DNA of 64,000 nucleotides from Candidatus Vogelbacteria bacterium (lineage in GTDB: Bacteria; Patescibacteriota; Minisyncoccia; Phycocordibacterales; XYD1-FULL-46-19), in assembly GCA_903878275.1 (NCBI GenBank), contig CAIRHC010000002.1, forward strand, positions 29,218 through 93,217, read 5' to 3'. This document shows, piece after piece, positions 21,891-39,690 of this stretch (position 1 is the stretch's first letter; the number at the start of each line of letters is the position of its first letter). Below the pieces are notes generated by a model. It did no database searches. It worked only from the letters and a program-made list of their open reading frames with translations, and was not told where the DNA came from. The position numbers and the translations under genes were made by a program.

Positions 21891-22691
21891 TTATTTACAC
21901 TCCTTATGCAATGTCTTATCCGGATAAGCCTTTAGCAACTCCGCCTCAGAGCTAAAGGTCTTAAGATATTTTGGCGACAAGCCTTTCCACACGGAATCAG
22001 TATCGCAATAATAATATCTCGCTGTTGGGTGAGCGCTAACATAAAAGGTGTGGCCGGTGGTCCCGATTACTGCAGGGCTAGAGGAAGAGACTTTTTGACT
22101 CGCATTTGTTACTTGTTGGCAAGCATTATCAGCCCACAAGCCTACCTTACTCGCCTCAGCTACTTTCTGGGCATTTTTATATTCCGCTTGATACTTGTAA
22201 GGGAGGTCATAGGTATATTCGTGAGCATAGCCTTCTTCAATCATCAACTTATTAAAACTTCGCCCATCAGCCAAATAAACATATCTTAATGTCCGGCCGT
22301 ACTTATCAAGCTCGCCTTGTGATTGATCGCTTTCTAAGCCGACTGATTGGCCTGACAAGAGCTCCTTCGCTTTCGCTGACGCTTCTCGGCCAAAACATTG
22401 AACTGGTTTTCGAGGATCAACCACTTCGGGCGTGTCCATACCAATCAGACGAAGTCTTGTTACTTTGCCGTTAATATCCACATCAATCGTGTCGCCATCA
22501 ACGACTTTGGTTACTCTAAATAACGAGCTTGAAGCGAAATTGCCACTAAGTTGGACATTTGCCACTAATTTTTGACCAAAGTCGCTAGATTGAGGAGATG
22601 GTGATAATTTAGAACTACTTACCGCTAAAACAACAGCGGCAAAAATAAAGATTAAGACTGTGAACCATTTTAAATACTGTTTTTTAAGCAT
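21891..22691 (-). CDS. secreted thermonuclease (staphylococcal-nuclease-like) with a C-terminal extension
   Basis: An N-terminal TM/signal segment, then VVDGDTIDVDINGKVTRLRLIGMDTPE...GRTLRYVYL...EGYAHEY. Confidence 0.75.
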   Translation of the reverse strand: MLKKQYLKWFTVLIFIFAAVVLAVSSSKLSPSPQSSDFGQKLVANVQLSGNFASSSLFRVTKVVDGDTIDVDINGKVTRLRLIGMDTPEVVDPRKPVQCFGREASAKAKELLSGQSVGLESDQSQGELDKYGRTLRYVYLADGRSFNKLMIEEGYAHEYTYDLPYKYQAEYKNAQKVAEASKVGLWADNACQQVTNASQKVSSSSPAVIGTTGHTFYVSAHPTARYYYCDTDSVWKGLSPKYLKTFSSEAELLKAYPDKTLHKECK

Positions 22692-23307
22692 GTTGATTTT
22701 TGTCGTAATAATACTTATTTATACCATGAGCAATCTCTAAAACCTCATTGGCTAAGGCTCTTAAGTTATCTATTTCTTTAGAAAAATCAGACGGACTATA
22801 CCTTTCATCCTTAGTAGATTTCGATCTTAATTTCTTTAAATCTTCTATTACCTTTGAACCATCGCTATCTAAACCCCCCTGAAATTCTAAAAGCTTTTTA
22901 TAACTTTCGATTTTTGTATCAATTTCAATCTCAGAGAACCCCATGTTAAAATAGGAACCCTTGTCACTAATATCCACATGGGCAATTATTTTATTTCTAT
23001 TGATTGTAATTTTATCAATAATGTTTTTATATTTCTTCTCAAAATTACTAATTCTGTCCTTAAAAATTTGAGGTGAGTCTTTTTTTAATTGTTTCAATCC
23101 TGATTTATCGCTCTTTGTCACTGAAATCAACTTTGCCATATCCAAAATAATGGAGTGGATATAGACAAAATCAATATTGTAAAAATCTTTCTTAATATCA
23201 CTTCCTTCTATCTTATTTTGGTAATCATCTAACTTTTTTAAACTGGTGCGACACAAATCATCAATAACCAGCAACAGGTTATAAAAATTTTTGGGGTGTT
23301 TCGTCAT
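22684..23307 (-). CDS. hypothetical protein with an Rx5H motif, possibly a HEPN/Abi-like RNase domain
   Basis: 207 aa, very AT-rich; RNKIIAH matches the HEPN R-x4-6-H pattern. Confidence 0.3.
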   Translation of the reverse strand: MTKHPKNFYNLLLVIDDLCRTSLKKLDDYQNKIEGSDIKKDFYNIDFVYIHSIILDMAKLISVTKSDKSGLKQLKKDSPQIFKDRISNFEKKYKNIIDKITINRNKIIAHVDISDKGSYFNMGFSEIEIDTKIESYKKLLEFQGGLDSDGSKVIEDLKKLRSKSTKDERYSPSDFSKEIDNLRALANEVLEIAHGINKYYYDKNQHA

Positions 23308-23338
23308 CTTTTGTTTATTTCATCGTCCATAGATTTAT

Positions 23339-23533
23339 CTAAATTCTGTTATTCCATCCTTGCCAGATTAAAACGATAGTGAGAATCACTAAAATTACAT
23401 TAAGGACGATAACTACTCGACTTGAAAAGTCGGTTGAATTCTTGAGCCGTCGCATCATTTCGACAGAGGCTCTGCTCGAAGTATTAAGGGTTTGATCGAC
23501 CAACTCATTATCTGTCTTGTTTTTATATTCCAT
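23339..23533 (-). CDS. small protein with a C-terminal TM helix (64 aa)
   Basis: ORF between the Cas4-like gene and the HEPN-like gene. Confidence 0.3.
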   Translation of the reverse strand: MEYKNKTDNELVDQTLNTSSRASVEMMRRLKNSTDFSSRVVIVLNVILVILTIVLIWQGWNNRI

Positions 23534-23541
23534 GGGTATTT

Positions 23542-24291
23542 TTATTTAATTAACTTCGCCCTTTCCTTAGCATAACCACAAAACTCACAATCGATGGTCT
23601 CCTTGGGCATCTTGGCGCGATTAAGGCACTTCTTAATCTTAACCAACTCCGCTTCAATCCAGTCGTCCTTGCCGGTATACGGAAGGACTACGATATCAAA
23701 CTCTACCTTGCCATCAAACGCTTTTCTATCCGTTCGACCATTACAATAGACGAAGTAGCCAATATCGGACACCTTAAAACCATTCTGACGCAGTAGCCAT
23801 TGGTAAATCTCCATTTGGCGCTTATAGCCGTCTTGCCACTCGGCATCAAGATTAACTTCGCTTTCCTTAGCCGTCGCCTTATAATCCACCACGATTAACT
23901 CTTTCTTTTTATTTATCCAGATATCGTCAACCGCCCCAGTGATCAACAGATTGGTCGGTTCATGTAGATAGCGAACACCTTTGAAGTTCTCTCTCCACTC
24001 GTCCATCATTTCATGCTGAAAAGGCACCGCATCAATGCCGTACTGCTTCATTAGCGGATGAGTCGTTTTGTCGGCGCGATGAATATCAAATTCTTTCTTT
24101 AAGAGTGTATCCACTGCCTTGTTAATATTAAAAGGTGGACAGTTTGGTTGTTTAATCCCAAGACGGTTATTTAAGTAGAAACAACAAGGGCAATTAACAA
24201 ACGACTCAATACCACTGCGGCTAATCTTAAATGGCTTGTCGTCTTTGGCTTTAAATAACCCCCGAGATTTTATTTTAAATTCTTTTTTCAT
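23542..24291 (-). CDS. Cas4/RecB-like PD-(D/E)xK nuclease with a four-Cys candidate Fe-S ligand set
   Basis: D...VVDYK core motif; cysteines in CPCC (N-terminal) and CEFC (C-terminal), as in Cas4/AddB nuclease domains. Confidence 0.55.
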   Translation of the reverse strand: MKKEFKIKSRGLFKAKDDKPFKISRSGIESFVNCPCCFYLNNRLGIKQPNCPPFNINKAVDTLLKKEFDIHRADKTTHPLMKQYGIDAVPFQHEMMDEWRENFKGVRYLHEPTNLLITGAVDDIWINKKKELIVVDYKATAKESEVNLDAEWQDGYKRQMEIYQWLLRQNGFKVSDIGYFVYCNGRTDRKAFDGKVEFDIVVLPYTGKDDWIEAELVKIKKCLNRAKMPKETIDCEFCGYAKERAKLIK

Positions 24292-24307: not shown

Positions 24308-25978
24308 TCAACGTACTTCGACCCTGTCTTTATTAATCCACTTTAAAAATGTTGGTTTTTTATTTTTATTAGATGAGATGAGAAATATTTTCTTCCTAGC
24401 TCTAGTCAAAGCAACAATAAAATTACAGATATCTTGGTCGGAAATATTTTTCTTATCTTTGCCTTTGATAAAATACTGATCATCAAAGTGAGTAATAAAG
24501 ACAATATCAGCGGCCAGACCCTTGGAACTTTGGATAGTAGTGGCTTTTATTGGGATTTTCCTAATTCCCGGATTTCCTCCTTTTAAGGGATTAGACTCGA
24601 TCTCATTTTTTAGGAAGTTTTTTATAATTTCTTTATTTTCAAACCCCATTTTATTTAACAATTGTTCGAGTTCAACGGTATCGACAATTTTATCATTTTT
24701 AATACTACGACAGATCTTTAAGTCTCCATTGATTTCTTTTTTGATATCCTTAGAGACAATTTCGCTAATTGGTTTCGCGTTATCTTTAGCCGTCTCTTTA
24801 ATTAGCCTCTCAAAATCTTCCTTGCTTAAATAATGCTTTACAACAATACGCCAACCAAGATTGCTGCCAATGTGATCCAGAAGGAGTTTAAATCCATCAA
24901 TAATTGTTGGGTCTTCACCACTTTCTTTTTCTGGGTGCTCAATATTACTAAAACCTTTTTTGCGTAAGGCTTCGACGACAGTTTTTGACTGTTTTTTTGT
25001 TGGAGATATTATTAAGACCGAAAATAAACCCTTAACTTCTTCAGCTATCTCACCAATTTTTGTTTGGATATACCATGGGATTTGGCCAGCATACGATTGG
25101 TTATAAATAATGTTAGGGTTTAGTTCGCTCTCCTTGTCTTTCTTCTCATCCGGAAAATATTGATATGGTTTATCAATCCGATTTTTTAATAACCCGTTAT
25201 TCTTGGCGGACAATATCAAATCATTCGTAGCATCGACAATAACCTCGGTACACCGAGAACAATAGGGAAGGCTAAATGGTGCATATTCCGGGCACAAATC
25301 ACCATGCTTGAGTCGTATATAATCAGCGCTGGCACTCTTAAAACCATATAGAGCTTGGTCATCGTCCCCAGCTAACAAGACGGGACTTTTTTCTGAAAGT
25401 AGCTCGATGAGAGAAACTTCTAGTCTATTAAAATCCTGAAATTCATCGACGACAATTTGTTCCCACTTTGGTATTTTTTCTTTTTTAGATTCAAAATATT
25501 TAACCACGGCAAAGATAACATCTGGATACCCATAGTATTTGCCATAAAAGTTCTTTCGCTTCTTGTAAAATTCTAAATCCGTGTTATCGTCGTCACGGTT
25601 ATGAAAAATTTGGTCAAAATCAATGTCTTTTTCTAAAACAATCTTGGCATCTTCTTTTATTACCCGTGGCAGTTTAGGAAAAAGTTTTATCTCATTTTTT
25701 ACCACCTTACTTAACTCACTTCTGGCAAAACTATGGAGAGTTCTAACTTCTGATACACCACAAAGCTCTAGAGATAGTTCCTCTACCAGAGCATTCACAA
25801 AGGTAAGGGTTAGTGTGTCTTTTTTCCCTTTAAGTATCTCTTTAAAAAGATGGGTCTTCCCTGTCCCCGGCCCAGCAACGACAATTTTATGTCTTGAGAT
25901 AGAATTTAAAATTGCGTCAGTATGTTTCTTCCGTTCGGCTTTTGACTTAACATATTTTTCAACATTGTCAGGAATAAT
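24308..25978 (-). CDS. UvrD/Rep-family SF1 helicase with all motifs. There is no ATG/GTG/TTG before its Walker A, and it lies in frame with the upstream ORF across a single TAG.
   Basis: Motif I (IVVAGPGTGKT, about 25853-25885), motif II (IVVDEFQD), motif III (LLAGDDDQALYGF) and motifs V/VI (TIQSSKGLAADIVFI, VALTRARKKIFL). The first codons after the TAG are ATT ATT CCT GAC... Confidence 0.65.
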   Translation of the reverse strand: MIPDNVEKYVKSKAERKKHTDAILNSISRHKIVVAGPGTGKTHLFKEILKGKKDTLTLTFVNALVEELSLELCGVSEVRTLHSFARSELSKVVKNEIKLFPKLPRVIKEDAKIVLEKDIDFDQIFHNRDDDNTDLEFYKKRKNFYGKYYGYPDVIFAVVKYFESKKEKIPKWEQIVVDEFQDFNRLEVSLIELLSEKSPVLLAGDDDQALYGFKSASADYIRLKHGDLCPEYAPFSLPYCSRCTEVIVDATNDLILSAKNNGLLKNRIDKPYQYFPDEKKDKESELNPNIIYNQSYAGQIPWYIQTKIGEIAEEVKGLFSVLIISPTKKQSKTVVEALRKKGFSNIEHPEKESGEDPTIIDGFKLLLDHIGSNLGWRIVVKHYLSKEDFERLIKETAKDNAKPISEIVSKDIKKEINGDLKICRSIKNDKIVDTVELEQLLNKMGFENKEIIKNFLKNEIESNPLKGGNPGIRKIPIKATTIQSSKGLAADIVFITHFDDQYFIKGKDKKNISDQDICNFIVALTRARKKIFLISSNKNKKPTFLKWINKDRVEVR

Positions 25979-27214
25979 CTATAACTTTGATCTAAGATTT
26001 TTAAGATTAGCCAATAATTCGTCATAGAGAATAAAATTAATATTTTTTAGCGACGATCCCAATTTTCTAAAATCTGCCGATTCCTTTTTGTTTGCAAATT
26101 GAGCACTTGTTCCCGCGATGATATAACCGCGAGGACGAACAACACGGATATCTAGAGTCTTTTTTCTTTTTACTGCACGAATATAATCATCAGAATTACG
26201 AACAATTTCATCGTTATAATTCTCAATTTGAGCAATGGCTTTTGAAATATCAGCTTTCCAATAATAATTATCGTGGTCCTCGTCGAGACTAAGTAAGGGG
26301 GTGTCATGCTTTTTTATTTCAAAAACATCCACGAAACCGTACACATCAACCAAGACAAAATCTGGGTAACTTACACTGACACTAACATTTTGTTTTTCTA
26401 TTGAAGTGATATAGTTTGCCATAAAACGAAAAACTTTTTCGCTTAAGAATTTTTGCCAATCATTTTCAGAGAGGGTCTTTTTCGCCAAATTAAGATCAAA
26501 TTCTTTTATAACTTCGTCAAGAAAAATTTTATCAGTGACAGTCTTGGTCTTTTTTATAAGCGTGGCACGTCCAATTTTAACTCCTCGTTTCTTGCCCTTG
26601 GTCGAACCCTCAAATATTTTAGGGAAGAAATCGCTAAGAGATTCGAGGTCTTCTTCATTCAGCTTTTGGGATACCTTTTTGCGCCGCAGAAGCGCCGCCA
26701 TTTCACCTCCTTTATATTCGTCAAAATCATCGGCAGAAATTCTAATTTCCTTTGGAAATTTTGTACTCAAAAAGGAAGCAACGGAACCACGCAATTCATT
26801 ATTGTTATCTTCGTTTATTCTCCCAAGTCTTATAAGGAGATTCTTAATGTCAATAAAAGGAAGGGTAACTGATATTTTATGGATACCGTTCTTCACTTTT
26901 TTTCTTTGTTTGTCTGATATTATAAACTCAAGAATCCTCCCGTTTGCCAAGTGATTTTTAAGTCCAAGGAGAAGAAAAACGCCTTTCTTGCTACCACTAA
27001 ATCCATAACCGTTCTTGTTAAGGTAAAGTCCTGATGGAACACCCTGAAAACCATCGAGCGTAATACTAGAAACCTCTTTTGCTTTTGTCGGCCGGAAGTT
27101 ATAAATCGTTTTATTTGTCTTGCGATATATCTCGCAGACACAAAAATCAGGGTCGTCTGTCGCAAAGCGTCGTTCAGGAATTTCTTGTTTTTTTATCTTT
27201 TTCATTTTTCCCAA
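25979..27214 (-). CDS. PD-(D/E)xK nuclease-domain protein, Shedu/DUF4263-like, with an N-terminal domain of unknown function
   Basis: C-terminal motifs VLVDVYGFVDVFEIKK and ...AIAQIENY (D...ExK...QxxxY). 411 aa, ending at a TAG in frame with the helicase. Confidence 0.45.
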   Translation of the reverse strand: MGKMKKIKKQEIPERRFATDDPDFCVCEIYRKTNKTIYNFRPTKAKEVSSITLDGFQGVPSGLYLNKNGYGFSGSKKGVFLLLGLKNHLANGRILEFIISDKQRKKVKNGIHKISVTLPFIDIKNLLIRLGRINEDNNNELRGSVASFLSTKFPKEIRISADDFDEYKGGEMAALLRRKKVSQKLNEEDLESLSDFFPKIFEGSTKGKKRGVKIGRATLIKKTKTVTDKIFLDEVIKEFDLNLAKKTLSENDWQKFLSEKVFRFMANYITSIEKQNVSVSVSYPDFVLVDVYGFVDVFEIKKHDTPLLSLDEDHDNYYWKADISKAIAQIENYNDEIVRNSDDYIRAVKRKKTLDIRVVRPRGYIIAGTSAQFANKKESADFRKLGSSLKNINFILYDELLANLKNLRSKL

Positions 27215-29637
27215 AGTTTAGCTAATACTTCTTTAGCCTTTTGCTCATAAATCTCAATAAGTTTTTTAGCAGAATTGACTAAGCCGAGCTCAGCTTCGAT
27301 TTTTTCCACAATTTGTTTTTGAATTTCGAGAGGAGGTGCAAATATTTCAGTTTCTTCAATTAATTTATTATATAGCCGTTCGATGGTCCCACCTTTAGTA
27401 GTAACCCAATTAATATCTTGAAAAACTAAATAAAGATATTTATTGTCTACTATTTTTCCATCGTTTTCTATCCAAACTATATTTGAATCTTGAAAATAGG
27501 CTGGCTCACCATCAAAAATAACAGTTCTGCCAATAGTCCCAGAAGTTGAAATTAAGACATCGCCTTTTTTGGGGTAAGAAAATTTAGCCTGATAATCATC
27601 AAACAATTCTTGACTAATAAATGCATCTGGATTTTTCCCAAATGTACCAATTTTATAAAAAGGGACTTTACCATCGGCACTAGTTTGGTCCTTAAAAACT
27701 CTTTTACACATGCTAACTTTCCCAACCTCTCCCAACTTCACCTTCTCCCACTCAGGATCAATCTCGATTTTCGTTTTCCAGTTTTGGGTAATTTGTTTAG
27801 CGCCGGAAATAATACCCGTATATCCTTCCAGCTCTACTACAATCTGCTTTTGGATTTCGAGAGGTGGGAGAGGGATTTTAATTGTTTTTAGATCCTTTGG
27901 ATAAACATGTGGTTGCCCACCTCCTTGCTGAAATTTATAGATGTCTTCCTGTTTTGTTTTAAGAATATAAAATAGATATTTAGTGCTAACTACATTTTTA
28001 TCGATTGATTGGATTGTCGAACAATCGGAGGCAAAAATTGGGGTATTAAAATAATTTACAAATCCAGAATAAGCACCAGAAGCGCTAACCGTGATGACTT
28101 CACCATTCCGATTTGATTCGTCGTGATAATAGGCTGGCTCTTGACCTCCCGCTATCACTGGAATATTCCCATCTTTAGTGTCTTTTTTTGTTATGGCGGA
28201 ACCTTTTATAATTTCAGCAATCTCGCCCAACTCAACCATTGGCCACTTGGCGTTAGAATAATCGGTGACAACTTGATAACGATCACCGGAAAGATTATAG
28301 TCACCGCTCTCGGCAATTTTGGATTTTTCAACCCACAAACCAAGATCCCATTCTTTTTCTCCTTTTAAATTAACTTTTTTATCCCCGGCCATTAAAGTGT
28401 CCTGCCAAATTCGAAGATAATGTAAAGCTAAAGGCAAATCACCCTGATGACCAAGAGATCTCCTCTGTGCGCCCAAATCAAAGCCGTCATCCTTTATTTT
28501 TATAAACAAAATATCCTGAGCTCTCTTTGCTAGCTCATTATCAAAAAACAAGATACTTGTTTTTACCCCAGCATAAGGATTAAACACGCCTGAGGGTAAA
28601 GACACGACAGCAAACAAGCCATCTTCAACGAGACTTTTTCGCAGTTGCTTATAGGCAGTCCCTGATTGAAAGATGATACCCTCAGGCACAATAATACCGG
28701 CTCGGCCCTTTGGTTGGAGGTGGTTCATTATGTAATCGACAAACAAAACCTCACTTCGGCTCGATTGAATACTAAACTTACTGTGCGGTTTAATGCCTCC
28801 CTTCGGTGACATAAAAGGTGGATTGGCCAGAATTACACTAAATTTGTCGTTCCAACGCTCATCGCTTGAAAGAGAATCATACTGAAAGATTTTTGGATTC
28901 TTAAATTGGTGAAGATACATATTAACTTGAGCAATACGCACCATGCCGGGATCGATGTCGTAGCCTTCAAAGTTATTCGCTAAAGCGCGCCTTTGATCCG
29001 GAGTCAGAGATTTCTCTTTTTTGTCTGGGTCGTCTTTGCCATCATGTTGCTCAAGAATATGTTTGTAAGAACTAACCAAGAAGCCACCCGTGCCACAAGC
29101 GGGATCAAGAACTTTATCATCTTTTGTTGGATTAACGACATCAACTATAAAATCAATGATGTGGCGAGGAGTACGGAATTGACCAGCGTCGCCTTGAGAG
29201 GACATTATTGATAGTAAATATTCGTAAGCGTTACCAAGCTCTTCGGGGTGAGAGTAATCAAAATAATCAATCTCTTTAAGGAATAGCCCCAAAGTTTCAG
29301 GTGAACGATACGGCAAGAAGGCAGACTTAAAGATCCCTCTAAAAAGTTCCGGCAGTTGTTTGGCTTCTGAGAATTTAAGTAGGGCCTCTGAGTAAAGATT
29401 CATGCGCTCTTGATTTCCCATGCGAGAATCCATTAAGCGAGTCCAAGCGTAACGCTCGAGACTACCGACAAAAAAGGAAGGTTCGCCACCCGCTTTAATC
29501 GCCGCCTGATCCATGTCATCCATAAACTTATAGACCAAAGCATTGGTGATTTGATCAATCTGCGAAGTCGGATTTGGTACCACTCCAACAAGCACTTGAC
29601 GAGCCGAATCAATATGTCGTTTTGTGTCAGCGTTCAT
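27202..29637 (-). CDS. type I R-M methyltransferase fused to a specificity subunit (HsdM-HsdS fusion, two TRDs)
   Basis: The N-terminal half has N6-adenine MTase motifs (DPACGTGGFLV, LANPPF). The C-terminal half has two TRD-like halves, each followed by the repeat PLPPLEIQKQIV / APPLEIQKQIV. Confidence 0.8.
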   Translation of the reverse strand: MNADTKRHIDSARQVLVGVVPNPTSQIDQITNALVYKFMDDMDQAAIKAGGEPSFFVGSLERYAWTRLMDSRMGNQERMNLYSEALLKFSEAKQLPELFRGIFKSAFLPYRSPETLGLFLKEIDYFDYSHPEELGNAYEYLLSIMSSQGDAGQFRTPRHIIDFIVDVVNPTKDDKVLDPACGTGGFLVSSYKHILEQHDGKDDPDKKEKSLTPDQRRALANNFEGYDIDPGMVRIAQVNMYLHQFKNPKIFQYDSLSSDERWNDKFSVILANPPFMSPKGGIKPHSKFSIQSSRSEVLFVDYIMNHLQPKGRAGIIVPEGIIFQSGTAYKQLRKSLVEDGLFAVVSLPSGVFNPYAGVKTSILFFDNELAKRAQDILFIKIKDDGFDLGAQRRSLGHQGDLPLALHYLRIWQDTLMAGDKKVNLKGEKEWDLGLWVEKSKIAESGDYNLSGDRYQVVTDYSNAKWPMVELGEIAEIIKGSAITKKDTKDGNIPVIAGGQEPAYYHDESNRNGEVITVSASGAYSGFVNYFNTPIFASDCSTIQSIDKNVVSTKYLFYILKTKQEDIYKFQQGGGQPHVYPKDLKTIKIPLPPLEIQKQIVVELEGYTGIISGAKQITQNWKTKIEIDPEWEKVKLGEVGKVSMCKRVFKDQTSADGKVPFYKIGTFGKNPDAFISQELFDDYQAKFSYPKKGDVLISTSGTIGRTVIFDGEPAYFQDSNIVWIENDGKIVDNKYLYLVFQDINWVTTKGGTIERLYNKLIEETEIFAPPLEIQKQIVEKIEAELGLVNSAKKLIEIYEQKAKEVLAKLWEK

Positions 29638-29641
29638 TTAT

Positions 29642-32179
29642 TTATAAGTTTGTTAATTGGTAGGCATAATCACGGACATATTGAGGGACGATCACTCGGT
29701 AGCCATTTAATTTCTGATAATCTTCAAAGTCGAAAGAGGGACAGTGATAAAAATCAGCTGGTTGATTGCGCTTCACAATGTCACGAACTTCTTCGTCAGA
29801 GATGTAAGCCTTAAAGAAGTTTTTAGCTGGTCGGTAATGGTCTTGATCAACATTATAAATATCGACAAATTTCTGCCATTCGGATTCCAAGAGGTCATCT
29901 TTCATCTCAAAGGTTTCTTTATCACCAAAAGCTACCTGCAAGAATTCTTTAACAGTCACTCGGCGGTCAACGCCAAAAATCTTACGGATCTTATCAAGAT
30001 TCAAGAAATATTTCGGCTTATCAAAAATCTGCTTTTTAGCAAAGTCTTCCGCCGCTTCCGTGTCGCCGTTCTCCCACATATTCTTTAGAGTTTCATTGCC
30101 AAGGACATCTTCTTCGACAGCTCGCTTAAAACCTTCGCGATCAATTCGCATAATCACACCCTCGGGAGTCTCAGAAATTGTGGCTAATTCATCTGAAGTC
30201 GCAAGATCGATCGGCCCCTTAAGTGGTTCCGGAGTTGGACCACCGACAGGACCATTTCCTCCCGGACCAGTTAATGGCGGGATATGGACGATGGGAAGTT
30301 TAATTTTTTCATCATACTCAAATTCATTTTCAAAATATTCACAGGTGGCGAAGAAATCGAAAAACTTAAATTTTTCTTTCGGTAGGGTAACTTTATCATT
30401 TTGATAATCGTTATATTCAAACAGCCATTTTCTCGTGCCTCGTCCTTTAATCTGAACAAAATCGGTGGGAGAAAAAACCGGACGCATTAAGGCGATGTTG
30501 AGTAGGTCTTGGCAATCATAACCAGTGGTCATCATGCCGACAGTGACAGCAATCCGCGCTTTGCTTGTGTCATAGCCTTCTGGGTGTTTTGTTTGTCCGC
30601 CAAGGCGATTGTTGGCAAAATTAATGGTCATTTGTTGAGCACTGTCTACTTGTGAAGAAACTTGCATCGCAAAATTTGATTCACTATATTGCTCTGGCCA
30701 TTTTTCAAAAGCAATTTTGTTTAATATGTTGGTCAGTCGAGCAGCGTGTTTTTGAGAGACAGCAAAGACAATTGATTTACCAAAAAGATCTACTCCTAAT
30801 TTTTTAGCCACTGGGTCATATAGCCCGTTATCAATAAAGGCTTTGCACATGGCGATATTGGTCTCATCATTAAAAATTTTCCGCTCATAGTGGCGTTCAT
30901 TAAATACCTCGTCGATGGTCTCGCCGCTTTCCGTTAGGGTATGAACGGCATAACCTTTCTCTGATAAAAGTTCAGTGGTAATTTCGGTCCGAGCATCGAC
31001 AAGTGTCGGCTTAATCAAGTAGCCTTCTTTTGCTCCAGTGTCTAAGTCATAAGAAAAAGTAGGATTACCGGATTCGCAACCAAATGTTTTATAGGTATCA
31101 ATCAAGAGTCGTCGCTCGTACTCTCTTTGACTATCAGCACCTTCAGTATCAAAGCCTCTCAAATAATTTTTAGGTGTAGCCGTTAAACCTAATTTATAGC
31201 CAACAAAGTATTCAAAAACCGCTCGACTATTACCACCGATTGAACGATGTGCTTCATCTGAAATAACTAATTCAAAATCGGTTGGTGAAAATTCTTTTTT
31301 ATAACGATCGCCAGCGAGAAAGGTTTGGATAGTAGAAACCACCACGCTAGCGTTTTGCCAAGAATCCCGGCTGTCTTTATAAATAACCGTGGCAAAATCG
31401 TGACCAAGATAAGCGGTAAACGCTTTGTAGGCTTGATCTTCCAGCTCTAAACGGTCTACCAAGAAAAGAACACGGCGAGCATTACCGGATTTTAAGAATA
31501 ATTTAATTATCGCTGCGGAAATGAGAGTCTTACCAGTGCCAGTGGCCATCTCAAAAAGAAATCGTTGCTTACCACTTTTCGCTGATTCTTGAAGAGCTTT
31601 GATCGATTGAAGTTGATAAGGACGAAGTTGCTTAATACGATTATTTTTTAAGAAGTCAGATCTCGTGGCTTCATTCTGAAAAGAAGGATCATTTATTAAT
31701 CCTGGCATTTGCGTGACGGCAACATAATTCTCATCAACTGGAGTGTTAGCTAATTCCTCAGGATTTGGAGTGTACTTTTCATATTGAGTAATTGAGTCTT
31801 GGGTTGGGAAACGAGAAATGGTGTCAGGATTACCATGCTTAGTGTCCCAGAGATAATGAATATTGCCATTTGAGAGAATGATAAAACGAGCGCCAGAGTT
31901 ACGAGCATAATTTCTCGCTTGTTCTTTGGCAGAAAGTGGATCAACTGCTTCGCGTTTCGCTTCTACCACCACCAAGGCTCGGCCATCTTTATCAAGTAAA
32001 AGAAAATCTATGAAGCCATGAGTTTCATTTTCAAAGTCATCTCCAAGGTCAGAATATTTAACACCTGGCTCAAGGCGGATATTAGCTTTGCCGTTTTTGT
32101 CATCCTCAAAACGCCAGCCAGAAGCTTCGAGAAGTTTATTGATCTTAATTCGAGCAGATGCTTCTTTAGAATTTGCCAT
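29642..32179 (-). CDS. hsdR: type I restriction enzyme R subunit (HsdR-like, 845 aa)
   Basis: N-terminal Mrr/HSDR_N-like nuclease (FIDFLLLDKDGRALVVVEAKRE), then an SF2 helicase (FLFEMATGTGKT, VISDEAHRS). Confidence 0.8.
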   Translation of the reverse strand: MANSKEASARIKINKLLEASGWRFEDDKNGKANIRLEPGVKYSDLGDDFENETHGFIDFLLLDKDGRALVVVEAKREAVDPLSAKEQARNYARNSGARFIILSNGNIHYLWDTKHGNPDTISRFPTQDSITQYEKYTPNPEELANTPVDENYVAVTQMPGLINDPSFQNEATRSDFLKNNRIKQLRPYQLQSIKALQESAKSGKQRFLFEMATGTGKTLISAAIIKLFLKSGNARRVLFLVDRLELEDQAYKAFTAYLGHDFATVIYKDSRDSWQNASVVVSTIQTFLAGDRYKKEFSPTDFELVISDEAHRSIGGNSRAVFEYFVGYKLGLTATPKNYLRGFDTEGADSQREYERRLLIDTYKTFGCESGNPTFSYDLDTGAKEGYLIKPTLVDARTEITTELLSEKGYAVHTLTESGETIDEVFNERHYERKIFNDETNIAMCKAFIDNGLYDPVAKKLGVDLFGKSIVFAVSQKHAARLTNILNKIAFEKWPEQYSESNFAMQVSSQVDSAQQMTINFANNRLGGQTKHPEGYDTSKARIAVTVGMMTTGYDCQDLLNIALMRPVFSPTDFVQIKGRGTRKWLFEYNDYQNDKVTLPKEKFKFFDFFATCEYFENEFEYDEKIKLPIVHIPPLTGPGGNGPVGGPTPEPLKGPIDLATSDELATISETPEGVIMRIDREGFKRAVEEDVLGNETLKNMWENGDTEAAEDFAKKQIFDKPKYFLNLDKIRKIFGVDRRVTVKEFLQVAFGDKETFEMKDDLLESEWQKFVDIYNVDQDHYRPAKNFFKAYISDEEVRDIVKRNQPADFYHCPSFDFEDYQKLNGYRVIVPQYVRDYAYQLTNL

Positions 32180-32184
32180 AATCT

Positions 32185-33381
32185 TTATTTTTTAAATTCT
32201 TGAAGCTTAAAATCAATTTTATATAAATAAACCTCCGTGTCTTTTATTTTTTTCAAGGCGTAATACAGTCTTTCGTCATACTGCGAGGCGATAATGATTC
32301 CTTTTACCGTTTTGCCATTAGTTTTATTTTCTTCAATCCAACCCATATACCGAGCAAGTTGCCCAACAGTATCATCGCTCGTCTTTCCCTTTTTCAATTC
32401 GATAACAACATAATTTTTGGTCTCTTTTTCTTGCGCCAAGATGTCAATTCGTCCGATACCGGTCTGATACTGCTGGCTTTTTAATTCACCCTCCTCTTCG
32501 ATAAGGTCATATCTTTGGCCCAACTCAGTTCTATCCCAGTTTTCTATTAAAAAATCTTCAAGTTGACTCTCCATATAAAAAACAGACGGATCAACCAAAA
32601 CTTCAGAGGTTGTGTCCTCTTTATTTACGGAGACTTCTTTAAAACCACCCCATGGGGCATAGTCATCTTCATGCTCAATCTTCCAAAGAGGCTTAGCTTC
32701 CGAAGAATACAGAAAATCGGAAATAGTTCGAGCTGAGTAATTAAGGCCAAAGCTATTAAAGCCTCTCATTATTTCGATATTAGAAAAAATTATTTTCTTT
32801 CCAATAGAATCTTTATCGAAATCTGGAGCCCCCTCAAATCCAAAATACTCAAAAACTTTTCTTCGATCCTTAAGTGAGATAACACTTAAGTTGCTGACGG
32901 GGTTAAAAGCGGCCAGCATCGCGTTTATGGCATTACCACTTGGACCAGTAAGATTATTACGATGCCCCTCGTTAAGTTTATATACCTCATTTATAAGTTC
33001 CGCCCTCTTATCAACATCTTTTTCTGTAAAAATACTGTTCAGCAGGTTGGATAAATTCTTATTTATTTTTATCTCATTAAACATTCTGCGCCACGCCCCC
33101 TGTGGAATCATCGCTTTGGCGACAGCTTCACTTTCTTTGGTATTGCCCTTACCGTTTCGATCCAAAATTTTAATAATTTGATCCGTCTCCGTATCGTTTA
33201 GTTCTTCTCTGTCACCACTCATTATTTTAGTCACCCAAAAATCATGAAATTGTTTACTTTGTTTTTCCCAAACAGCATTCTTGGCCTCAGTGTCATAATT
33301 GGCAAGAAAGCTATTAAATAATTGATTAAGTTGTTGTTTTTCCATTGGATTACCTATTATTAGAGCCTTATTTATCAACAC
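32185..33381 (-). CDS. protein with a C-terminal PD-(D/E)xK (NucS/RecB-like) nuclease-fold domain; first gene of the island
   Basis: ...GRIDILAQEKETKNYVVIELKKGKTSDDTVGQLARYMGWI. Confidence 0.45.
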   Translation of the reverse strand: MLINKALIIGNPMEKQQLNQLFNSFLANYDTEAKNAVWEKQSKQFHDFWVTKIMSGDREELNDTETDQIIKILDRNGKGNTKESEAVAKAMIPQGAWRRMFNEIKINKNLSNLLNSIFTEKDVDKRAELINEVYKLNEGHRNNLTGPSGNAINAMLAAFNPVSNLSVISLKDRRKVFEYFGFEGAPDFDKDSIGKKIIFSNIEIMRGFNSFGLNYSARTISDFLYSSEAKPLWKIEHEDDYAPWGGFKEVSVNKEDTTSEVLVDPSVFYMESQLEDFLIENWDRTELGQRYDLIEEEGELKSQQYQTGIGRIDILAQEKETKNYVVIELKKGKTSDDTVGQLARYMGWIEENKTNGKTVKGIIIASQYDERLYYALKKIKDTEVYLYKIDFKLQEFKK

Positions 33382-35408: not shown

Positions 35409-36839
35409 CTATAACCCAAAAAATGATCTAAACCTCGACCAGAAACTAGTCTTCTTGTCACCAGACGCAAATGTAGTACTGCTATTTTTTACCTCAGGCT
35501 GAATTAATGCTTGTTGTTTGGAATTACTAATGGCTTTAAGTTGATCTCTAAAATCACCAGCAAAAAGACTTCTGCTCATCCAGCCTGTTATTATCTCTTT
35601 ATTATCATTTCTTGCTTTAACTTGATACCAATCTCCGCTACCATCAATACTAATAATGGAAACTTCAGCTGTTTCGGCATAGTACCTAATCACCTCACAA
35701 GACATCCCCGGACATTCCCTAAAAGCTCCTGGGATTTTTAAAATCGCTACGATTCCATCAATACCCGTTGCCGTGGAAGAAGCACCACTTTCAGATTTAT
35801 TATTAATATCAGGAGCCTTAATCTTTTTCTCTAACTTAGGAACCACTGGTGTTATTTTAGGTGTTAGGACACAAACGGTGCTATTAGAATTAAATTGATA
35901 ACCAACTTTACAGTCGCAAATTAACCCCCCTTCATTATTTTTGTCTCCACCCCATATACTATTTTTACCATATTCATCCTGACAAATCTGGTCATTCGTT
36001 TTTGTCGGAGCAACTGCTTCAGCCTTTTGTCTGGCCAAGAGTAGGGCTTTTTGATAAGCGATTTCTGCTTCGATATTACTTGCCCTTATTTGTCCCCGCA
36101 AAGCCTCTGACCCAGAGCTGATATTTTGGGGAACAACTGGCGGAACAATACAGCCAGATCCAGAGTCTCTAACATAACCATCTTTGCACCCACAAGTTGT
36201 ACCACCCACCCATTTAAAGTTTTGCCCAAATTTTTCACTGCAAATCTGATCCTGTGACTTTGAGGGAGTTATTGCCGGAGGTGGAGTTTCCCTCATAATT
36301 GAGCATTGTAAAAGAGCCGTAACACACCTTTCTTTACTTCCTAAAAGGCTCACAAAAACATCAAAGTCCAGAGAAGTTGGGTCAGACGGAATCCTCGCAC
36401 CCTGAAGACAATCAGAATTACTTAACCGACATTGAGTATAACTAGAATTTGAACTACCCGCAGCGTCATATTGTTTTTCAATACCGTCTAATTTATAGAA
36501 ATAATCTAATTTAATTTTAAAAATCTCTTGAGCATGAGTAGCATCAGCGGCTAGTTGATCTCTTGCTCGTTGATCCTGAATTCTTTGATCCCTTGTACAA
36601 TTATAGATTGCTTCATTTTCAAGGCCAGAACCAGAAAGCCCCCGGGCTTCGTATTCCGCCCTTATCGATGACAAGCAATCACTGGCGCGAATTTTATCTG
36701 GCGAAATAAATAAGCAAAAGAAAAAAATAAAGAGACTCAAATAAATTCTTTTCTTCATAATGTTGTTTATTAACTGATAATTTTTAATATTAGAACGCAA
36801 AAAGCTCTTAGCCAGATTGATGGTTTTGAAGCCATCCAT
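35409..36839 (-). CDS. secreted Cys-rich repeat protein with a C-terminal SH3b-like domain
   Basis: Signal peptide; two internal repeats (QICSEKFGQNFKWVGGTTCGCKDGYV / QICQDEYGKNSIWGG...LICDCKVGYQF); C-terminal GSGDWYQVKAR...ITGWMSRSL. Confidence 0.5.
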   Translation of the reverse strand: MDGFKTINLAKSFLRSNIKNYQLINNIMKKRIYLSLFIFFFCLFISPDKIRASDCLSSIRAEYEARGLSGSGLENEAIYNCTRDQRIQDQRARDQLAADATHAQEIFKIKLDYFYKLDGIEKQYDAAGSSNSSYTQCRLSNSDCLQGARIPSDPTSLDFDVFVSLLGSKERCVTALLQCSIMRETPPPAITPSKSQDQICSEKFGQNFKWVGGTTCGCKDGYVRDSGSGCIVPPVVPQNISSGSEALRGQIRASNIEAEIAYQKALLLARQKAEAVAPTKTNDQICQDEYGKNSIWGGDKNNEGGLICDCKVGYQFNSNSTVCVLTPKITPVVPKLEKKIKAPDINNKSESGASSTATGIDGIVAILKIPGAFRECPGMSCEVIRYYAETAEVSIISIDGSGDWYQVKARNDNKEIITGWMSRSLFAGDFRDQLKAISNSKQQALIQPEVKNSSTTFASGDKKTSFWSRFRSFFGL

Positions 36840-36999
36840 ATCCCTTTCGAGATACGACCCGTGAAGGCAAAACTCTGACTAAGAGTTCTTTATGCTTCAC
36901 GGGATTTTCACCATGCCCAGCACCGCTGGGTTTAGGTTACTTTTAACTATTTAATTGTCCTTTTATGGTACCATGCCAAATTGAAATCGTCCAACAAAA

Positions 37000-37788
37000 A
37001 TGTTAGTCTGGGGTATGAATATGGAGGAACTAGACTTTTTTACTACTGACAAAACCCGATTCGACTATTTCACTAAAAAAAAGTTGACCGAGGAAACGGT
37101 AGCTTGGATGGTGAACCAGTTATTTCAAGGGTCCTACGAAGAATCATTTTTTGAATTTATCAATGAATATAGAGAGTATGTGGAACTTCCCAAAGCTAAC
37201 TTCAAAGATAAATCAATCGCTCTTAGCTGGAATAAATTAAATGAAGCCCTCTTTAGCTTGGCTGATTTTTTAACTAAAGAGAAAGCTGAGTTCATTTTAG
37301 ATCCGAGGGAGACCAAATCCGAACAGGAATCTTACTATATCCTTAACCCATCAAAGAAAAATCTGACGAAGAATCGAGAAAAACTACAAAAGATCGGTGA
37401 GGCGATTAAAACCAATTACCACAGCTTTTTAAGTAACGCCGGGAAAAAGTGGGTACCTCAACCGAAGATTGATATTAATATTGACGAAAGAACCGGAGTT
37501 TACCGAATAGATACTGACGGTAAAAAATTAACATATCGCTGTTTAAGTCCCCAAAGCGAAATTTTTAAAACAGTCTTATATCTAGCGAGAAGTAGTACTC
37601 CGATCAAAACGAGAGAGTTGGCCGAGAGATCAAGGCAGTACACCAGAACAGTTAGAGATGCAATAAAAAGGTTCAATAATAATTTTAGAAAGTATCTAAA
37701 GGTTAATCATGACCTTGTCAGGACGATAAAAGACGACTCCGTGAGCTATCAGTATTTTATTGAAAGAGACAAATATAACATAATCTAA
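37000..37788 (+). CDS. hypothetical protein (262 aa)
   Basis: ORF; a terminator-like hairpin (aggcac-gaggat-gtgcct, T-run) follows at about 37808-37836. Confidence 0.4.
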   Translation: MLVWGMNMEELDFFTTDKTRFDYFTKKKLTEETVAWMVNQLFQGSYEESFFEFINEYREYVELPKANFKDKSIALSWNKLNEALFSLADFLTKEKAEFILDPRETKSEQESYYILNPSKKNLTKNREKLQKIGEAIKTNYHSFLSNAGKKWVPQPKIDINIDERTGVYRIDTDGKKLTYRCLSPQSEIFKTVLYLARSSTPIKTRELAERSRQYTRTVRDAIKRFNNNFRKYLKVNHDLVRTIKDDSVSYQYFIERDKYNII

Positions 37789-38100
37789 CAACTTCTATTT
37801 TGGGCATGAGGTAGGCACGAGGATGTGCCTTTTTTGATGTCTTAAAATGGCTTAAATAAACGGATTTTTAATGATTAGAAAAAAGATCGTGCCTGCGTAA
37901 CACTCTTTTTTTTAAGCTTCTTTTGAACCAGACTTAGGTCATAACATTGTCATTAATTTAAGTTCGCCATGGAGGCCATCGAAGTCCCTTATCGGGTCGA
38001 TGAGTTCTACCTCCATGGAACTCATCGTGCCGATAGCGGATTTTTATTTTGGCCAAGGTCGAAGAAATTATTAAAAGAATTAATCAATAAAATATAAATT

Positions 38101-38400
38101 ATGAAAACAAAAAAGAAGGGTACAAAACTGATGGCTAAAAAAGAAATCACGAAAGAAAACTTGGGTTTAGGTCGTTTCAGGGGCGTAACCCTATGTCTGG
38201 GAAAGATTCAAGACGGCCTCCATTTTCATTTACTTATCGACAAGACGGGTGAGAAGCATGAAAGTTTAGTCGTAATAACTCTAAACGATCAACCAATTGC
38301 TATTTATGACTTAGAGTGTGCCGAGAAGAATTTCTGGCCAATCATAAAAAAGATGACCCTCAGCAAAGATAAATTAGTAGCCACGAAGCAAATAAACTAA
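38101..38400 (+). CDS. hypothetical protein (99 aa)
   Basis: ORF. Confidence 0.35.
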   Translation: MKTKKKGTKLMAKKEITKENLGLGRFRGVTLCLGKIQDGLHFHLLIDKTGEKHESLVVITLNDQPIAIYDLECAEKNFWPIIKKMTLSKDKLVATKQIN

Positions 38401-38538
38401 TCGTATGGGAAATAATAATTACATAATATCGTTAGCTAATGAAGAGCTCCTTGATGCTCAGCGCTCTTTTGACGAAGGCAATGGTGAAGAAACTCCTGAG
38501 GAAGTATCACCAAACCAAGGTAAATTATTCGAGTAAAG

Positions 38539-38960: not shown

Positions 38961-39024
38961 AGAATGCTCCCCCCTCCCAGGGATTAAAAGGTTAGGTCGG
39001 GCAAATTAATTAAAATTGTAACTT

Positions 39025-39529: not shown

Positions 39530-39690
39530 CAAAATTAAAGGGGATAAGATTACCCAAAACCTGAAGATATCTCGCCAACTAAATAATGAATCATTAGAAG
39601 CAATGACCAAGCTGGGAGAGGTCCTAAAAAGGATTCATGGACGACTCATAGCAAATGGTTATATAATGAGCGATAATTAACTAGATAAAA

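What the first reader, a model, noticed from the sequence alone, without database searches (positions are those of the whole stretch)
24308..27214. Single in-frame TAG separates the Shedu-like nuclease ORF from a UvrD-like helicase that has no start codon before its Walker A
The 411-aa ORF ends with the TAG at rc 25979-25981. The next codons in the same frame (ATT ATT CCT GAC AAT GTT GAA ...) run without interruption into IVVAGPGTGKT and the rest of a complete SF1 helicase, which has motifs I-VI and ends at 24308. There is no ATG, GTG or TTG between the TAG and the Walker A. The ORF track's GTG-initiated 496-aa version starts after motif I and would be ATPase-dead.
Four explanations are possible:
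- a recent nonsense mutation that splits an about 977-aa nuclease-helicase fusion, Nhi-like in architecture, into a truncated pseudogene;
- programmed or leaky TAG read-through producing both the nuclease and a nuclease-helicase fusion;
- non-canonical initiation at ATT;
- a sequencing or assembly error.
TAG is a genuine stop elsewhere in this window (topA ends ...GKIK-TAG), so global TAG reassignment is unlikely.
Basis: seen in the sequence. Interest (0 to 1): 0.75.

Follow-up and report, generated by a model that had tools for sequence, protein, structure and literature searches.

The report
Helicase gene with ATT instead of ATG
The TAG is the normal stop codon of a complete Shedu nuclease gene, and the helicase behind it is a separate, intact gene whose start-codon position reads ATT instead of ATG, so this is a one-base start-codon anomaly (or a sequencing error) and not a split or read-through fusion protein.

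Summary
The sduA ORF ends at TAG 25981-25979. The same frame then runs ATT ATT CCT GAC... into GPGTGKT and a full SF1 helicase ending at 24308. There is no in-frame ATG, GTG or TTG before the Walker A motif.

The fusion and read-through readings fail:
- All 30 aligned SduA orthologues, and 50 of 51 orthologous loci, end at exactly this residue (...NLRSKL). TAG is their commonest stop codon (23 of 51).
- Solved Shedu structures end at the same point.
- The 119 best helicase homologues other than the window's own 496-aa entry are stand-alone proteins of 539-622 aa covering 96-100% of the post-TAG reading.
- Among 73 genomic orthologues, 70 have a canonical start 29-49 codons before the Walker A.
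- No locus among about 170 examined pairs SduA with this helicase, and none is fused.

In orthologous loci the helicase is usually the last gene of a restriction-modification cassette. In the closest ones the layout is stop-NNN-ATG in the same frame (TGA TTT ATG). The window has TAG ATT ATT, so the second ATT (25975-25973) sits where ATG belongs.

The helicase is otherwise intact. It is most likely expressed weakly from AUU, coupled to sduA termination, or it has recently been silenced. An assembly error cannot be excluded. This is an ordinary finding of low interest.

The parts
25979..27205 (-). sduA: a complete stand-alone type I Shedu nuclease gene (408 aa plus TAG stop). Its ATG at 27205 overlaps the hsdMS stop as ATGA.
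   Evidence: Pfam SduA_C covers residues 246-398 of 408, E 1.6e-25. PADLOC SduA, E 6e-24. The best 120 homologues are at most 454 aa. All 30 aligned orthologues end at ...NLRSKL or a close variant, at this same position. The protein aligns with the solved EcSduA structure 8ps4 up to residue 405 of 411.
25979..25981 (-). TAG: the native stop codon of sduA, not a nonsense mutation.
   Evidence: 50 of 51 orthologous loci stop with 0 extra codons after ...K[LI]. Their stop codons are TAG 23, TAA 18 and TGA 10. The nearest orthologue (83% identity) also reads TTA TAG AT.
25976..25978 (-). First ATT. Most likely a one-codon spacer between the upstream stop and the helicase start position. It is an alternative AUU start.
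   Evidence: The closest helicase loci have TGA TTT ATG (L001, L171) or TAA T ATT ATG (L172).
25973..25975 (-). Second ATT: the position where the helicase family has its ATG start codon. The inferred difference is a third-position G to T on the coding strand, at window base 25973.
   Evidence: In the N-terminal alignment, the M of P0002, P0004, P0008, P0011, P0015 and P0023 (MxDxxDKY) falls on this codon, where the window reads I-P-D-N-V-E-K-Y. It lies 34 codons before the Walker A. The family median is 36, range 29-49.
24308..25975 (-). UvrD-like SF1 helicase gene: 555 codons counted from the second ATT, plus a TGA stop. It is intact and is a member of a stand-alone family of about 555 aa.
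   Evidence: Pfam UvrD-helicase, AAA_19 and UvrD_C. The 119 best homologues other than the window's own entry are 539-622 aa and cover 96-100% of the query. The window differs at only 4 of 143 family-invariant columns, and all four changes are conservative.
25853..25873 (-). Walker A motif GPGTGKT of the helicase.
   Evidence: G36, G38, T39, G40, K41 and T42 are invariant in the alignment.
25796..25798 (-). GTG used by ORF callers for the 496-aa version. It is an internal, conserved Val61 codon and not a real start.
   Evidence: P0001; V61 nearly invariant within FVNALVE.
23542..24291 (-). Cas4-like PD-(D/E)XK nuclease gene (249 aa), 16 nt downstream of the helicase. It is an occasional partner of this helicase family.
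   Evidence: Pfam PDDEXK_1, E 6.3e-12. PADLOC Cas4. A homologue directly follows the helicase in L004/L008, L013, L080 and L087.
27202..32179 (-). Type I restriction-modification genes directly upstream in the same orientation: hsdR (29642-32179) and a fused hsdM-hsdS gene (27202-29637).
   Evidence: Pfam ResIII and HSDR_N for hsdR. Pfam N6_Mtase plus two Methylase_S stretches for the fused gene. Gene spacings of 4 nt and -4 nt.

Best explanation
These are two separate, complete genes that lie next to each other in a defence island of a Patescibacteria genome related to Candidatus Vogelbacteria/Paceibacterota.

sduA (27205-25979) is an ordinary single-gene type I Shedu nuclease, and the TAG is its own stop codon. 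The following ORF is an ordinary member of a widespread family of stand-alone UvrD-like SF1 helicases of about 555 aa. This family usually sits as the last gene of restriction-modification or other defence cassettes, tightly abutted to the gene in front of it.

The layout here is the family's usual one: upstream stop, one spacer codon, then the start, all in the same frame. The start position (25975-25973) reads ATT instead of ATG, which is a single-base difference.

Inferred consequence: the helicase is made only at a low level. Translation would start at AUU by near-cognate initiation, probably by ribosomes that have just terminated on the sduA UAG 3 nt upstream (termination-reinitiation). 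If that is too inefficient, the gene has recently been silenced. The 496-aa GTG product is an annotation artefact.

Shown: the gene boundaries, the native stop codon, the stand-alone architecture of both families, the position of the missing ATG, and the intactness of the ORF.
Inferred: that the base is real, and how much protein is made.
For: sduA and its stop codon:
- The SduA family ends exactly at this stop in 30 of 30 aligned orthologues and in 50 of 51 orthologous loci at DNA level. TAG is the commonest stop (23 of 51) and is present in the nearest orthologue.
- Solved Shedu proteins end at the same point.
- Type I Shedu is described as a single-gene system with a C-terminal DUF4263 domain (bioRxiv 10.1101/2023.08.10.552762).

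The helicase as a separate gene:
- The 119 best homologues other than the window's own 496-aa entry are 539-622 aa and cover 96-100% of the 556-aa post-TAG reading. Their N-termini (MTDSSDKY, MSDSGDKY and similar) place M on the second ATT.
- 70 of 73 genomic orthologues have ATG, GTG or TTG 29-49 codons before the Walker A.
- L001 and L171 show the same in-frame layout, TGA TTT ATG.

No link between the two genes elsewhere:
- None of 87 earlier loci, including all 84 helicase loci, pairs the helicase with SduA. None of 83 SduA loci has the helicase downstream.
- The immediate neighbours of the helicase are varied and often restriction-modification genes.

State of the helicase and the junction:
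- The helicase is undegraded. It departs from the family at 4 of 143 invariant columns, all conservatively, within the family's own range of 0-13.
- The stop-to-start distance of 0-3 nt is inside the -8 to +10 nt range predictive of termination-reinitiation (PMC10666635).
- AUU initiates at about 0.02-3% of AUG in E. coli, and infC and pcnB use it naturally (bioRxiv 10.1101/063800).
- Most genes in the window lack Shine-Dalgarno motifs (my reading of the upstream sequences listed), so the absence of one here is uninformative.
Against: - No orthologue uses ATT, so an AUU start is not a conserved trait of this family.
- At 0.02-3% of AUG, expression may be negligible in practice.
- I could not inspect reads, so a consensus error (true base G) remains possible.
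- No close relative of this genome exists in the databases. The nearest SduA is 83% identical and the nearest helicase 72%. The age of the change, and selection since it occurred, therefore cannot be measured.
- Other one-step routes to the same state cannot be excluded. Examples are a 3-nt loss of ATG after ATTATT, as in L088 (ATT ATT ATG ACT GAT), or use of the first ATT.
Confidence: 0.7

Rival explanations
1. Sequencing, assembly or consensus error. The real genome has ATG at 25975-25973, or another canonical start at the junction, and the helicase is a normally initiated gene.
For: One base restores the family-typical stop-NNN-ATG layout. The ORF is otherwise perfectly intact. The sequence appears to come from a single metagenome-assembled contig of 101,830 bp with no second copy in the databases.
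Against: Nothing in the window points to a poor assembly. The ORFs are long, and conserved genes such as ClpB are full length. Substitution errors are rare in polished assemblies (my own knowledge). I could not retrieve the source contig or its reads.
Confidence: 0.15
2. The helicase is an incipient pseudogene. Start-codon loss has effectively silenced it, and the island now works without it. This is the same lesion as in the best explanation, but with no functional expression.
For: AUU is 30 to 5000 times weaker than AUG in E. coli. Decay does occur in this family: L028 has Walker A GTGET, L042 and L085 lack the 5' part, and L024 has lost its own start. sduA and the restriction-modification genes do not need the helicase in other genomes.
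Against: There are no secondary lesions in 555 codons, and all changes at invariant positions are conservative. The downstream Cas4-like gene is also intact. The 0-3 nt spacing favours coupled reinitiation.
Confidence: 0.25
3. Programmed or leaky UAG read-through makes a Shedu-helicase fusion of about 965 aa alongside free SduA.
For: The two ORFs are in the same frame with only the TAG between them. Basal near-cognate read-through of UAG exists in bacteria (my own knowledge).
Against: No fused homologue appears among the 120 best hits of either family. The adjacency is found in none of about 170 loci. Same-frame abutment also occurs with unrelated upstream genes in L001 and L171 and has a 1 in 3 chance anyway. 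The junction RNA is unstructured, with z = +0.63. TAG ends 17 of 45 ORFs in the window, and no tRNA with a CUA anticodon is present among the 7 tRNAs found. In the EcSduA tetramer the C-terminal DUF4263 domains form the central body, so a 556-aa C-terminal extension would be unprecedented.
Confidence: 0.03
4. A recent nonsense mutation split an ancestral Nhi-like nuclease-helicase fusion of about 970 aa.
For: Only the in-frame arrangement.
Against: The stop codon is at the conserved native C-terminus of SduA in every orthologue examined. The helicase N-terminus coincides with the native N-terminus of its family. No fusion exists in either family's best hits.
Confidence: 0.01
5. A one-base insertion converted an ATGA stop/start overlap (TTATGA) into TTATAGA. 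That single change would turn TGA into TAG, destroy the ATG and bring the two ORFs into one frame.
For: Some SduA orthologues end TTA TGA with the next gene's ATG overlapping (L005, L006). Removing the A at 25980 yields ATG ATT ATT CCT GAC = MIIPDNVEKY, a plausible N-terminus (compare METKELEEKY in P0010).
Against: TAG is the commonest stop in the family, and the nearest orthologue already reads TTA TAG AT, so there is no need to derive TAG from TGA. The closest helicase loci use stop-NNN-ATG, not ATGA.
Confidence: 0.05

Closest known systems
Shedu (SduA), type I single-gene anti-phage nuclease (e.g. E. coli EcSduA, PDB 8ps4)
   Same: A 408-aa protein with a variable N-terminal region and a C-terminal DUF4263/SduA_C PD-(D/E)xK domain. 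It has the same overall length and the same C-terminal end as the solved protein. The D...E-x-K residues are invariant in the orthologue alignment.
   Different: The N-terminal domain has no detectable similarity to that of EcSduA; only residues 232-404 align. Here sduA is embedded between a type I restriction-modification system and a helicase, but that neighbourhood is not conserved.
UvrD/PcrA/Rep-type SF1A helicases, and GajB of Gabija
   Same: Walker A (GPGTGKT), DEFQD, GDDDQALY and the C-terminal motifs are all present. Pfam UvrD-helicase, AAA_19 and UvrD_C match, and PADLOC GajB models match at E 6e-23.
   Different: The protein is only about 555 aa. Its scores are far below the equivalog cut-offs for UvrD, PcrA and Rep. 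GajB matches are mostly partial. No GajA (OLD/TOPRIM) partner is present. The family instead trails varied restriction-modification cassettes.
Nhi (nuclease-helicase immunity) and other single-chain nuclease-helicase defence proteins
   Same: A nuclease domain followed by an SF1 helicase on the same strand and in the same frame.
   Different: Here there are two genes separated by the nuclease's native stop codon. No fused homologues exist.
Natural AUU-initiated genes (infC, pcnB in E. coli)
   Same: AUU occupies the position of the initiation codon of an otherwise normal gene.
   Different: In infC the AUU is conserved and serves autoregulation (my own knowledge). Here ATT is unique to this genome, and orthologues use ATG, GTG or TTG.
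Translationally coupled gene pairs (termination-reinitiation)
   Same: The upstream stop and the downstream start are 0-3 nt apart in a tightly packed same-strand gene row. This is within the range where coupling works.
   Different: Described cases reinitiate at canonical start codons. Efficiency at AUU is unknown.

Membership tests
Shedu (SduA) | DUF4263/SduA_C nuclease domain with PD-(D/E)xK catalytic residues | tested here: met
   Pfam PF14082, E 1.6e-25, residues 246-398. 15 PADLOC SduA models match. D287, D293, E296 and K298 are invariant in 30 orthologues.
Shedu (SduA) | Type I architecture: long N-terminal region, nuclease domain at the C-terminal end, protein ends shortly after the domain | tested here: met
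   The domain ends 10 residues before the stop. The C-terminus is identical in position in all orthologues and in the solved structures. Definition taken.
Shedu (SduA) | Anti-phage activity | not testable with these tools
   Requires an experiment.
UvrD-like SF1A helicase | Motifs I (Walker A), II (DExx), III and V/VI present and in order | tested here: met
   GPGTGKT, VVDEFQD, GDDDQALY, SSKGL and ALTRAR are all conserved in the 20-sequence alignment. Pfam UvrD-helicase, AAA_19 and UvrD_C match.
Gabija (GajA + GajB) | GajB helicase encoded next to a GajA OLD-family ATPase/TOPRIM nuclease | tested here: not met
   No such gene lies between 21.9 and 33.4 kb. The neighbours are SduA, type I restriction-modification genes, a Cas4-like nuclease, a sub-threshold HEPN_AbiU2 match, a thermonuclease-like protein and a NucS_C-domain protein.
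Nhi-like nuclease-helicase fusion | Nuclease and SF1 helicase in one polypeptide | tested here: not met
   A native stop codon lies between them. There are 0 fusions among the 120 best hits of each family and about 170 loci.
Programmed stop-codon read-through | In-frame continuation conserved in orthologues | tested here: not met
   The adjacency is absent from all 83 SduA loci and all 84 helicase loci.
Programmed stop-codon read-through | Stimulatory RNA structure or reassigned/suppressed stop codon | tested here: not met
   The junction fold has z = +0.63. TAG ends 17 of 45 ORFs. There is no tRNA(CUA) in the window. The whole genome was not available.
Genes with a conserved non-AUG (AUU) start | AUU at the start position conserved among orthologues | tested here: not met
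   70 of 73 orthologues have ATG, GTG or TTG, and none has ATT.
Genes with a conserved non-AUG (AUU) start | Demonstrated initiation at the AUU | not testable with these tools
   Needs ribosome profiling, N-terminal proteomics or reporter assays.

The most novel reading that the evidence does not exclude
The ATT is real and selected. It would throttle a potentially toxic helicase to a trace level and make its synthesis strictly dependent on ribosomes terminating on the Shedu gene. Helicase dosage would then be slaved to SduA translation. Alternatively, a small fraction of UAG read-through would yield a Shedu-helicase chimera with a new activity.
Probability: 0.08. Interest if true: 0.45.

Novelty: new member of a known kind. 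Interest (0 to 1): 0.18.

Why it matters
The main value is for annotation. The deposited 496-aa helicase call is wrong because it lacks the Walker A. The correct model is a 555/556-aa gene with a non-canonical or damaged start. The apparent nuclease-helicase fusion should not be propagated as a new defence architecture.

If the ATT is real and used, it would be one more natural AUU start in bacteria, in a Patescibacteria genome that mostly lacks Shine-Dalgarno motifs. That would be a modest addition.

A side result may be more useful. This helicase family of about 555 aa recurs across many phyla as the last gene of unrelated restriction-modification cassettes, and sometimes carries a Cas4-like nuclease. 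That suggests an uncharacterised accessory module worth a dedicated survey.

Tried and rejected
- Frameshift rescue. The out-of-frame ATGs at 25965 and 25953 open a +1 frame that stops after 19 codons. The in-frame residues EKYVKSKAERKKHTDAIL match the family, so the frame is correct and no indel is needed downstream of the junction.
- One-base insertion (TGA to TAGA). This looked attractive, but lost its special support once 51 orthologous stop codons showed TAG to be the commonest, and present in the nearest relative.
- Closer relatives, strain variants or the source contig. Exact look-ups of the window's own proteins found nothing on record. The cluster look-up gave no names or accessions. 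The viral-contig scan with SduA found no relative. The nearest relatives are only 83% (SduA) and 72% (helicase) identical, so no population-level test was possible.
- Promoter and terminator scan of 21.5-34 kb. Counts were at shuffle background (39 against 32 +/- 5.6 promoter-like sites; 10 against 9.9 terminator-like sites), so this says nothing about operon structure.
- RNA structure at the junction. None above background.
- Gabija. Considered because of the PADLOC GajB hits, and rejected because there is no GajA.
Full report
**1. The observation**

On the minus strand, an ORF with a Shedu nuclease domain ends at TAG 25981-25979. The same frame continues ATT ATT CCT GAC AAT GTT GAA AAA TAT ... 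into IVVAGPGTGKT and stays open to the TGA at 24310-24308. None of the 35 codons between the TAG and the Walker A is ATG, GTG or TTG.

The first canonical start codon in frame is GTG 25798. This gives the 496-aa ORF, and that ORF is what public databases hold for this contig (P0001). It lacks the Walker A. The GTG is simply the nearly invariant Val61 codon of the family motif FVNALVE.

TAG is a working stop codon here. It ends 17 of 45 long ORFs in the window, against TAA 23 and TGA 5. These include the topA-like ORF that ends ...GKIK-TAG. None of the 7 tRNAs in the window has a CUA anticodon.

Two small corrections apply. sduA starts at the ATG at 27205 (408 aa), overlapping the hsdMS stop as ATGA. 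A read-through product would be about 965 aa, not 977.

**2. What the two ORFs are**

The upstream protein carries Pfam SduA_C (DUF4263) at residues 246-398 of 408 (E 1.6e-25) and matches 15 PADLOC SduA models.

The downstream reading (556 aa after the TAG) carries UvrD-helicase, AAA_19 and UvrD_C, with all SF1 motifs present. It is only distantly related to UvrD, PcrA and Rep.

The surroundings form a defence island on the same strand:
- a NucS_C/YhcG-like nuclease (32185-33381)
- hsdR (29642-32179)
- a fused hsdM-hsdS gene (27202-29637)
- sduA
- the helicase
- a Cas4-like PD-(D/E)XK nuclease (23542-24291)
- a 64-aa ORF
- a weak HEPN/AbiU2-like protein (below the Pfam cut-off)
- a thermonuclease-like protein

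The host is a Patescibacteria genome. Its ClpB is 92% identical to a protein from a Candidatus Vogelbacteria MAG, and other top hits are named Paceibacterota.

**3. Is the TAG a nonsense mutation in a fusion? No.**

The 120 best SduA homologues are at most 454 aa long, mostly 405-412 aa. Most cover 95-100% of the query, and a few shorter entries of 269-366 aa cover 65-81% or lack part of the protein. None is long enough to be a fusion.

In an alignment of 30 orthologues (51-83% identity), every sequence ends at the same column as the window, with ...NLRSKL or a close variant. At DNA level, 50 of 51 orthologous loci at 50% identity or above have their stop codon immediately after that last residue. 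The stops are TAG 23, TAA 18 and TGA 10. The nearest orthologue (83%) reads TTA TAG AT, like the window.

The solved E. coli SduA structure (8ps4) aligns up to residue 405 of its 411 residues, against residue 404 of the window's 408. Type I Shedu is described as a single-gene system of about 386 aa on average, with the nuclease domain at the C-terminus (bioRxiv 10.1101/2023.08.10.552762).

The TAG is therefore the native stop codon of sduA.

**4. Is the helicase a separate gene? Yes.**

Of 1310 helicase homologues, the best 120 comprise the window's own 496-aa entry plus 119 others. Those 119 are stand-alone proteins of 539-622 aa, mostly 552-560 aa, covering 96-100% of the post-TAG reading at up to 72% identity.

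Their N-termini include MTDSSDKY, MSDSGDKY, MNLNEKY and METKELEEKY. These align with the window's IIPDNVEKY, so their Met falls on or within three codons of the two ATT codons. The most common position is the second ATT.

In 73 evaluable genomic orthologues, 70 have ATG, GTG or TTG 29-49 codons (median 36) before the Walker A. In-frame stop codons a few codons further upstream rule out longer N-termini. The window's ATT codons lie 35 and 34 codons before the Walker A.

The three exceptions are two distant relatives with shorter N-termini and L024. In L024 a DUF3795 ORF runs in frame into the helicase.

**5. Is the SduA-helicase adjacency conserved? No.**

tblastn over 87 loci found no locus that holds both genes, and 84 of those loci carry the helicase. 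None of 83 SduA loci has the helicase or the Cas4-like gene nearby.

Close SduA orthologues are followed by unrelated small genes and often lie next to a large serine recombinase.

The helicase is instead found behind many different genes, often restriction-modification enzymes:
- MvaI/BcnI type II (L001-L003)
- type III Mod-Res (L004)
- an HTH, EcoRI-like methylase and GmrSD/HNH cassette (L172-L177)
- a divergent C5 methylase (L088)

Among 76 immediate upstream neighbours, the most frequent Pfam families are Eco57I, N6_Mtase, MmeI_Mtase, ResIII, TaqI_C, MvaI_BcnI and type I R-subunit domains. A Cas4-like PDDEXK_1 gene follows the helicase in only 4 of 75 loci.

The juxtaposition in this window is a product of defence-island shuffling, not a conserved two-domain unit.

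**6. What is at the start position**

The closest helicase loci with an upstream same-strand gene show the upstream stop, a 3-4 nt spacer, and then ATG:
- TGA TTT ATG in L001 and L171. This is in frame, exactly the window's geometry.
- TAA T ATT ATG in L172.
- L088, which has its own intergenic region, reads ATT ATT ATG ACT GAT.

The window reads TAG ATT ATT CCT GAC. The simplest reading is stop, spacer codon ATT, then a start position that holds ATT instead of ATG. That is a G to T difference at base 25973 on the coding strand. It predicts M/I-P-D-N-V-E-K-Y and a 555-aa protein, the same length as the second-best homologue, P0002.

I cannot exclude the first ATT as the site, nor a 3-nt loss of ATG after ATTATT.

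A one-base insertion turning an ATGA overlap into ATAGA was considered. It would explain everything in a single event, but it is not needed because TAG is already the commonest stop codon of the family.

**7. Functional state**

The helicase ORF shows no decay. At 143 columns that are invariant in 19 homologues, it differs at four (E/D, L/I, F/Y, R/K). This is within the leave-one-out range of the homologues themselves, 0-13. The downstream Cas4-like gene is also intact.

The junction RNA is unstructured, with z = +0.63. From the upstream sequences listed, most genes in the window appear to lack Shine-Dalgarno motifs, so the lack of one here means little. Promoter and terminator scans were at background.

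The stop-to-start distance of 0-3 nt lies inside the -8 to +10 nt range in which termination-reinitiation coupling works, whereas about 20 nt or more abolishes it (PMC10666635).

AUU supports initiation at about 0.02-3% of AUG in E. coli, and it is the natural start of infC and pcnB (bioRxiv 10.1101/063800). About 0.3% is the figure quoted.

I therefore infer weak AUU initiation coupled to sduA termination, shading into effective silencing. Which of the two holds cannot be decided computationally. A consensus error (true ATG) also remains possible, because neither the reads nor the source contig could be retrieved.

**8. Comparison with known systems**

sduA passes the tests for a type I Shedu nuclease. 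The helicase is a UvrD-like SF1A helicase. It is not Gabija GajB, because there is no GajA. It is not an Nhi-type fusion, because a native stop codon separates the genes and no fused homologues exist.

The locus fails both testable criteria for programmed read-through: conservation of the continuation, and a stimulatory context or suppressor. It also fails the criterion of a conserved AUU start.

**9. Verdict**

This is an accurate observation with an ordinary explanation. Two independent genes lie head to tail, the stop codon is native, and the start-codon position of the second gene differs from ATG by one base. The change is either real, giving low or no expression, or an assembly error.

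Novelty is that of a new member of known kinds, and interest is low (0.18). The most novel reading not excluded is a deliberately throttled, Shedu-coupled AUU start, or a functional read-through chimera. I give it about 8%.

Noticed in passing
L001-L004, L088, L172-L177 and the 76 upstream neighbours in L008-L087; window 24308-25978: This stand-alone UvrD-like helicase family of about 555 aa is spread across many phyla, including Patescibacteria, Verrucomicrobiota, Ignavibacteria, Acidobacteriota, Planctomycetota and archaea. It is repeatedly the last, tightly abutted gene of unrelated restriction-modification cassettes: MvaI/BcnI, EcoRI-like methylase with GmrSD/HNH, type III, type I and type IIG/Eco57I-like. 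It has no fixed partner, which suggests an uncharacterised accessory module of restriction-modification systems.
   Followed up: partly
window 23542-24291; L004/L008, L013, L080, L087: A Cas4-like PD-(D/E)XK nuclease of about 250 aa has an N-terminal Cys cluster (CPCC) and a C-terminal C-x13-C-x2-C. It directly follows the helicase in a minority of loci, at very different helicase divergence (32-68% identity). This hints at a recurrent split helicase-nuclease pair.
   Followed up: partly
L024:4431-6659 (Sedimentisphaerales MAG): A helicase orthologue has no start codon of its own. It is read in frame, without a stop, from an upstream Cys-rich DUF3795 ORF (...KTGFFYQ-EDKYETAK...). This is either a true N-terminal fusion or a second start-less case.
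   Followed up: partly
L028, L042, L085: Some orthologues look damaged. L028 has Walker A GTGET (Lys to Glu). L042 and L085 lack the 5' part, including the Walker A.
   Followed up: no
L005, L006/L007, L089/L090: Close SduA orthologues (79-83% identity) sit within 2-3 kb of a large serine recombinase (Resolvase, Recombinase and Zn_ribbon_recom domains). This suggests the Shedu lineage travels on integrative elements.
   Followed up: no
window 37000-41434: A 579-aa protein with a Recombinase domain (39691-41430, + strand) ends inside or next to tRNA-Trp (41361-41434, - strand). It is preceded by about 2.7 kb of small ORFs with no family match. This is possibly the integration module of a mobile element near the defence island.
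   Followed up: partly
window 36819-36938 (-): A full-length match to the Rfam LOOT RNA family (RF03000): 77 bits against a gathering score of 46.4.
   Followed up: no
window 27202-29637 (-): The type I methyltransferase and specificity subunits are fused in one 811-aa protein (N6_Mtase plus two Methylase_S stretches). Its stop codon overlaps the sduA ATG as ATGA.
   Followed up: no
window 21891-23533 and 32185-33381 (-): Further nuclease-type genes flank the island. They are a 398-aa NucS_C/YhcG-like PD-(D/E)XK protein, a 207-aa protein with a sub-threshold HEPN_AbiU2 match, a 64-aa ORF, and a 266-aa thermonuclease (NucI-like) with an N-terminal hydrophobic segment.
   Followed up: no
window, whole: Stop-codon usage among 45 long ORFs is TAA 23, TAG 17 and TGA 5. 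From the upstream sequences listed, most genes appear to lack a Shine-Dalgarno motif, with only a few showing AAGGAG.
   Followed up: no
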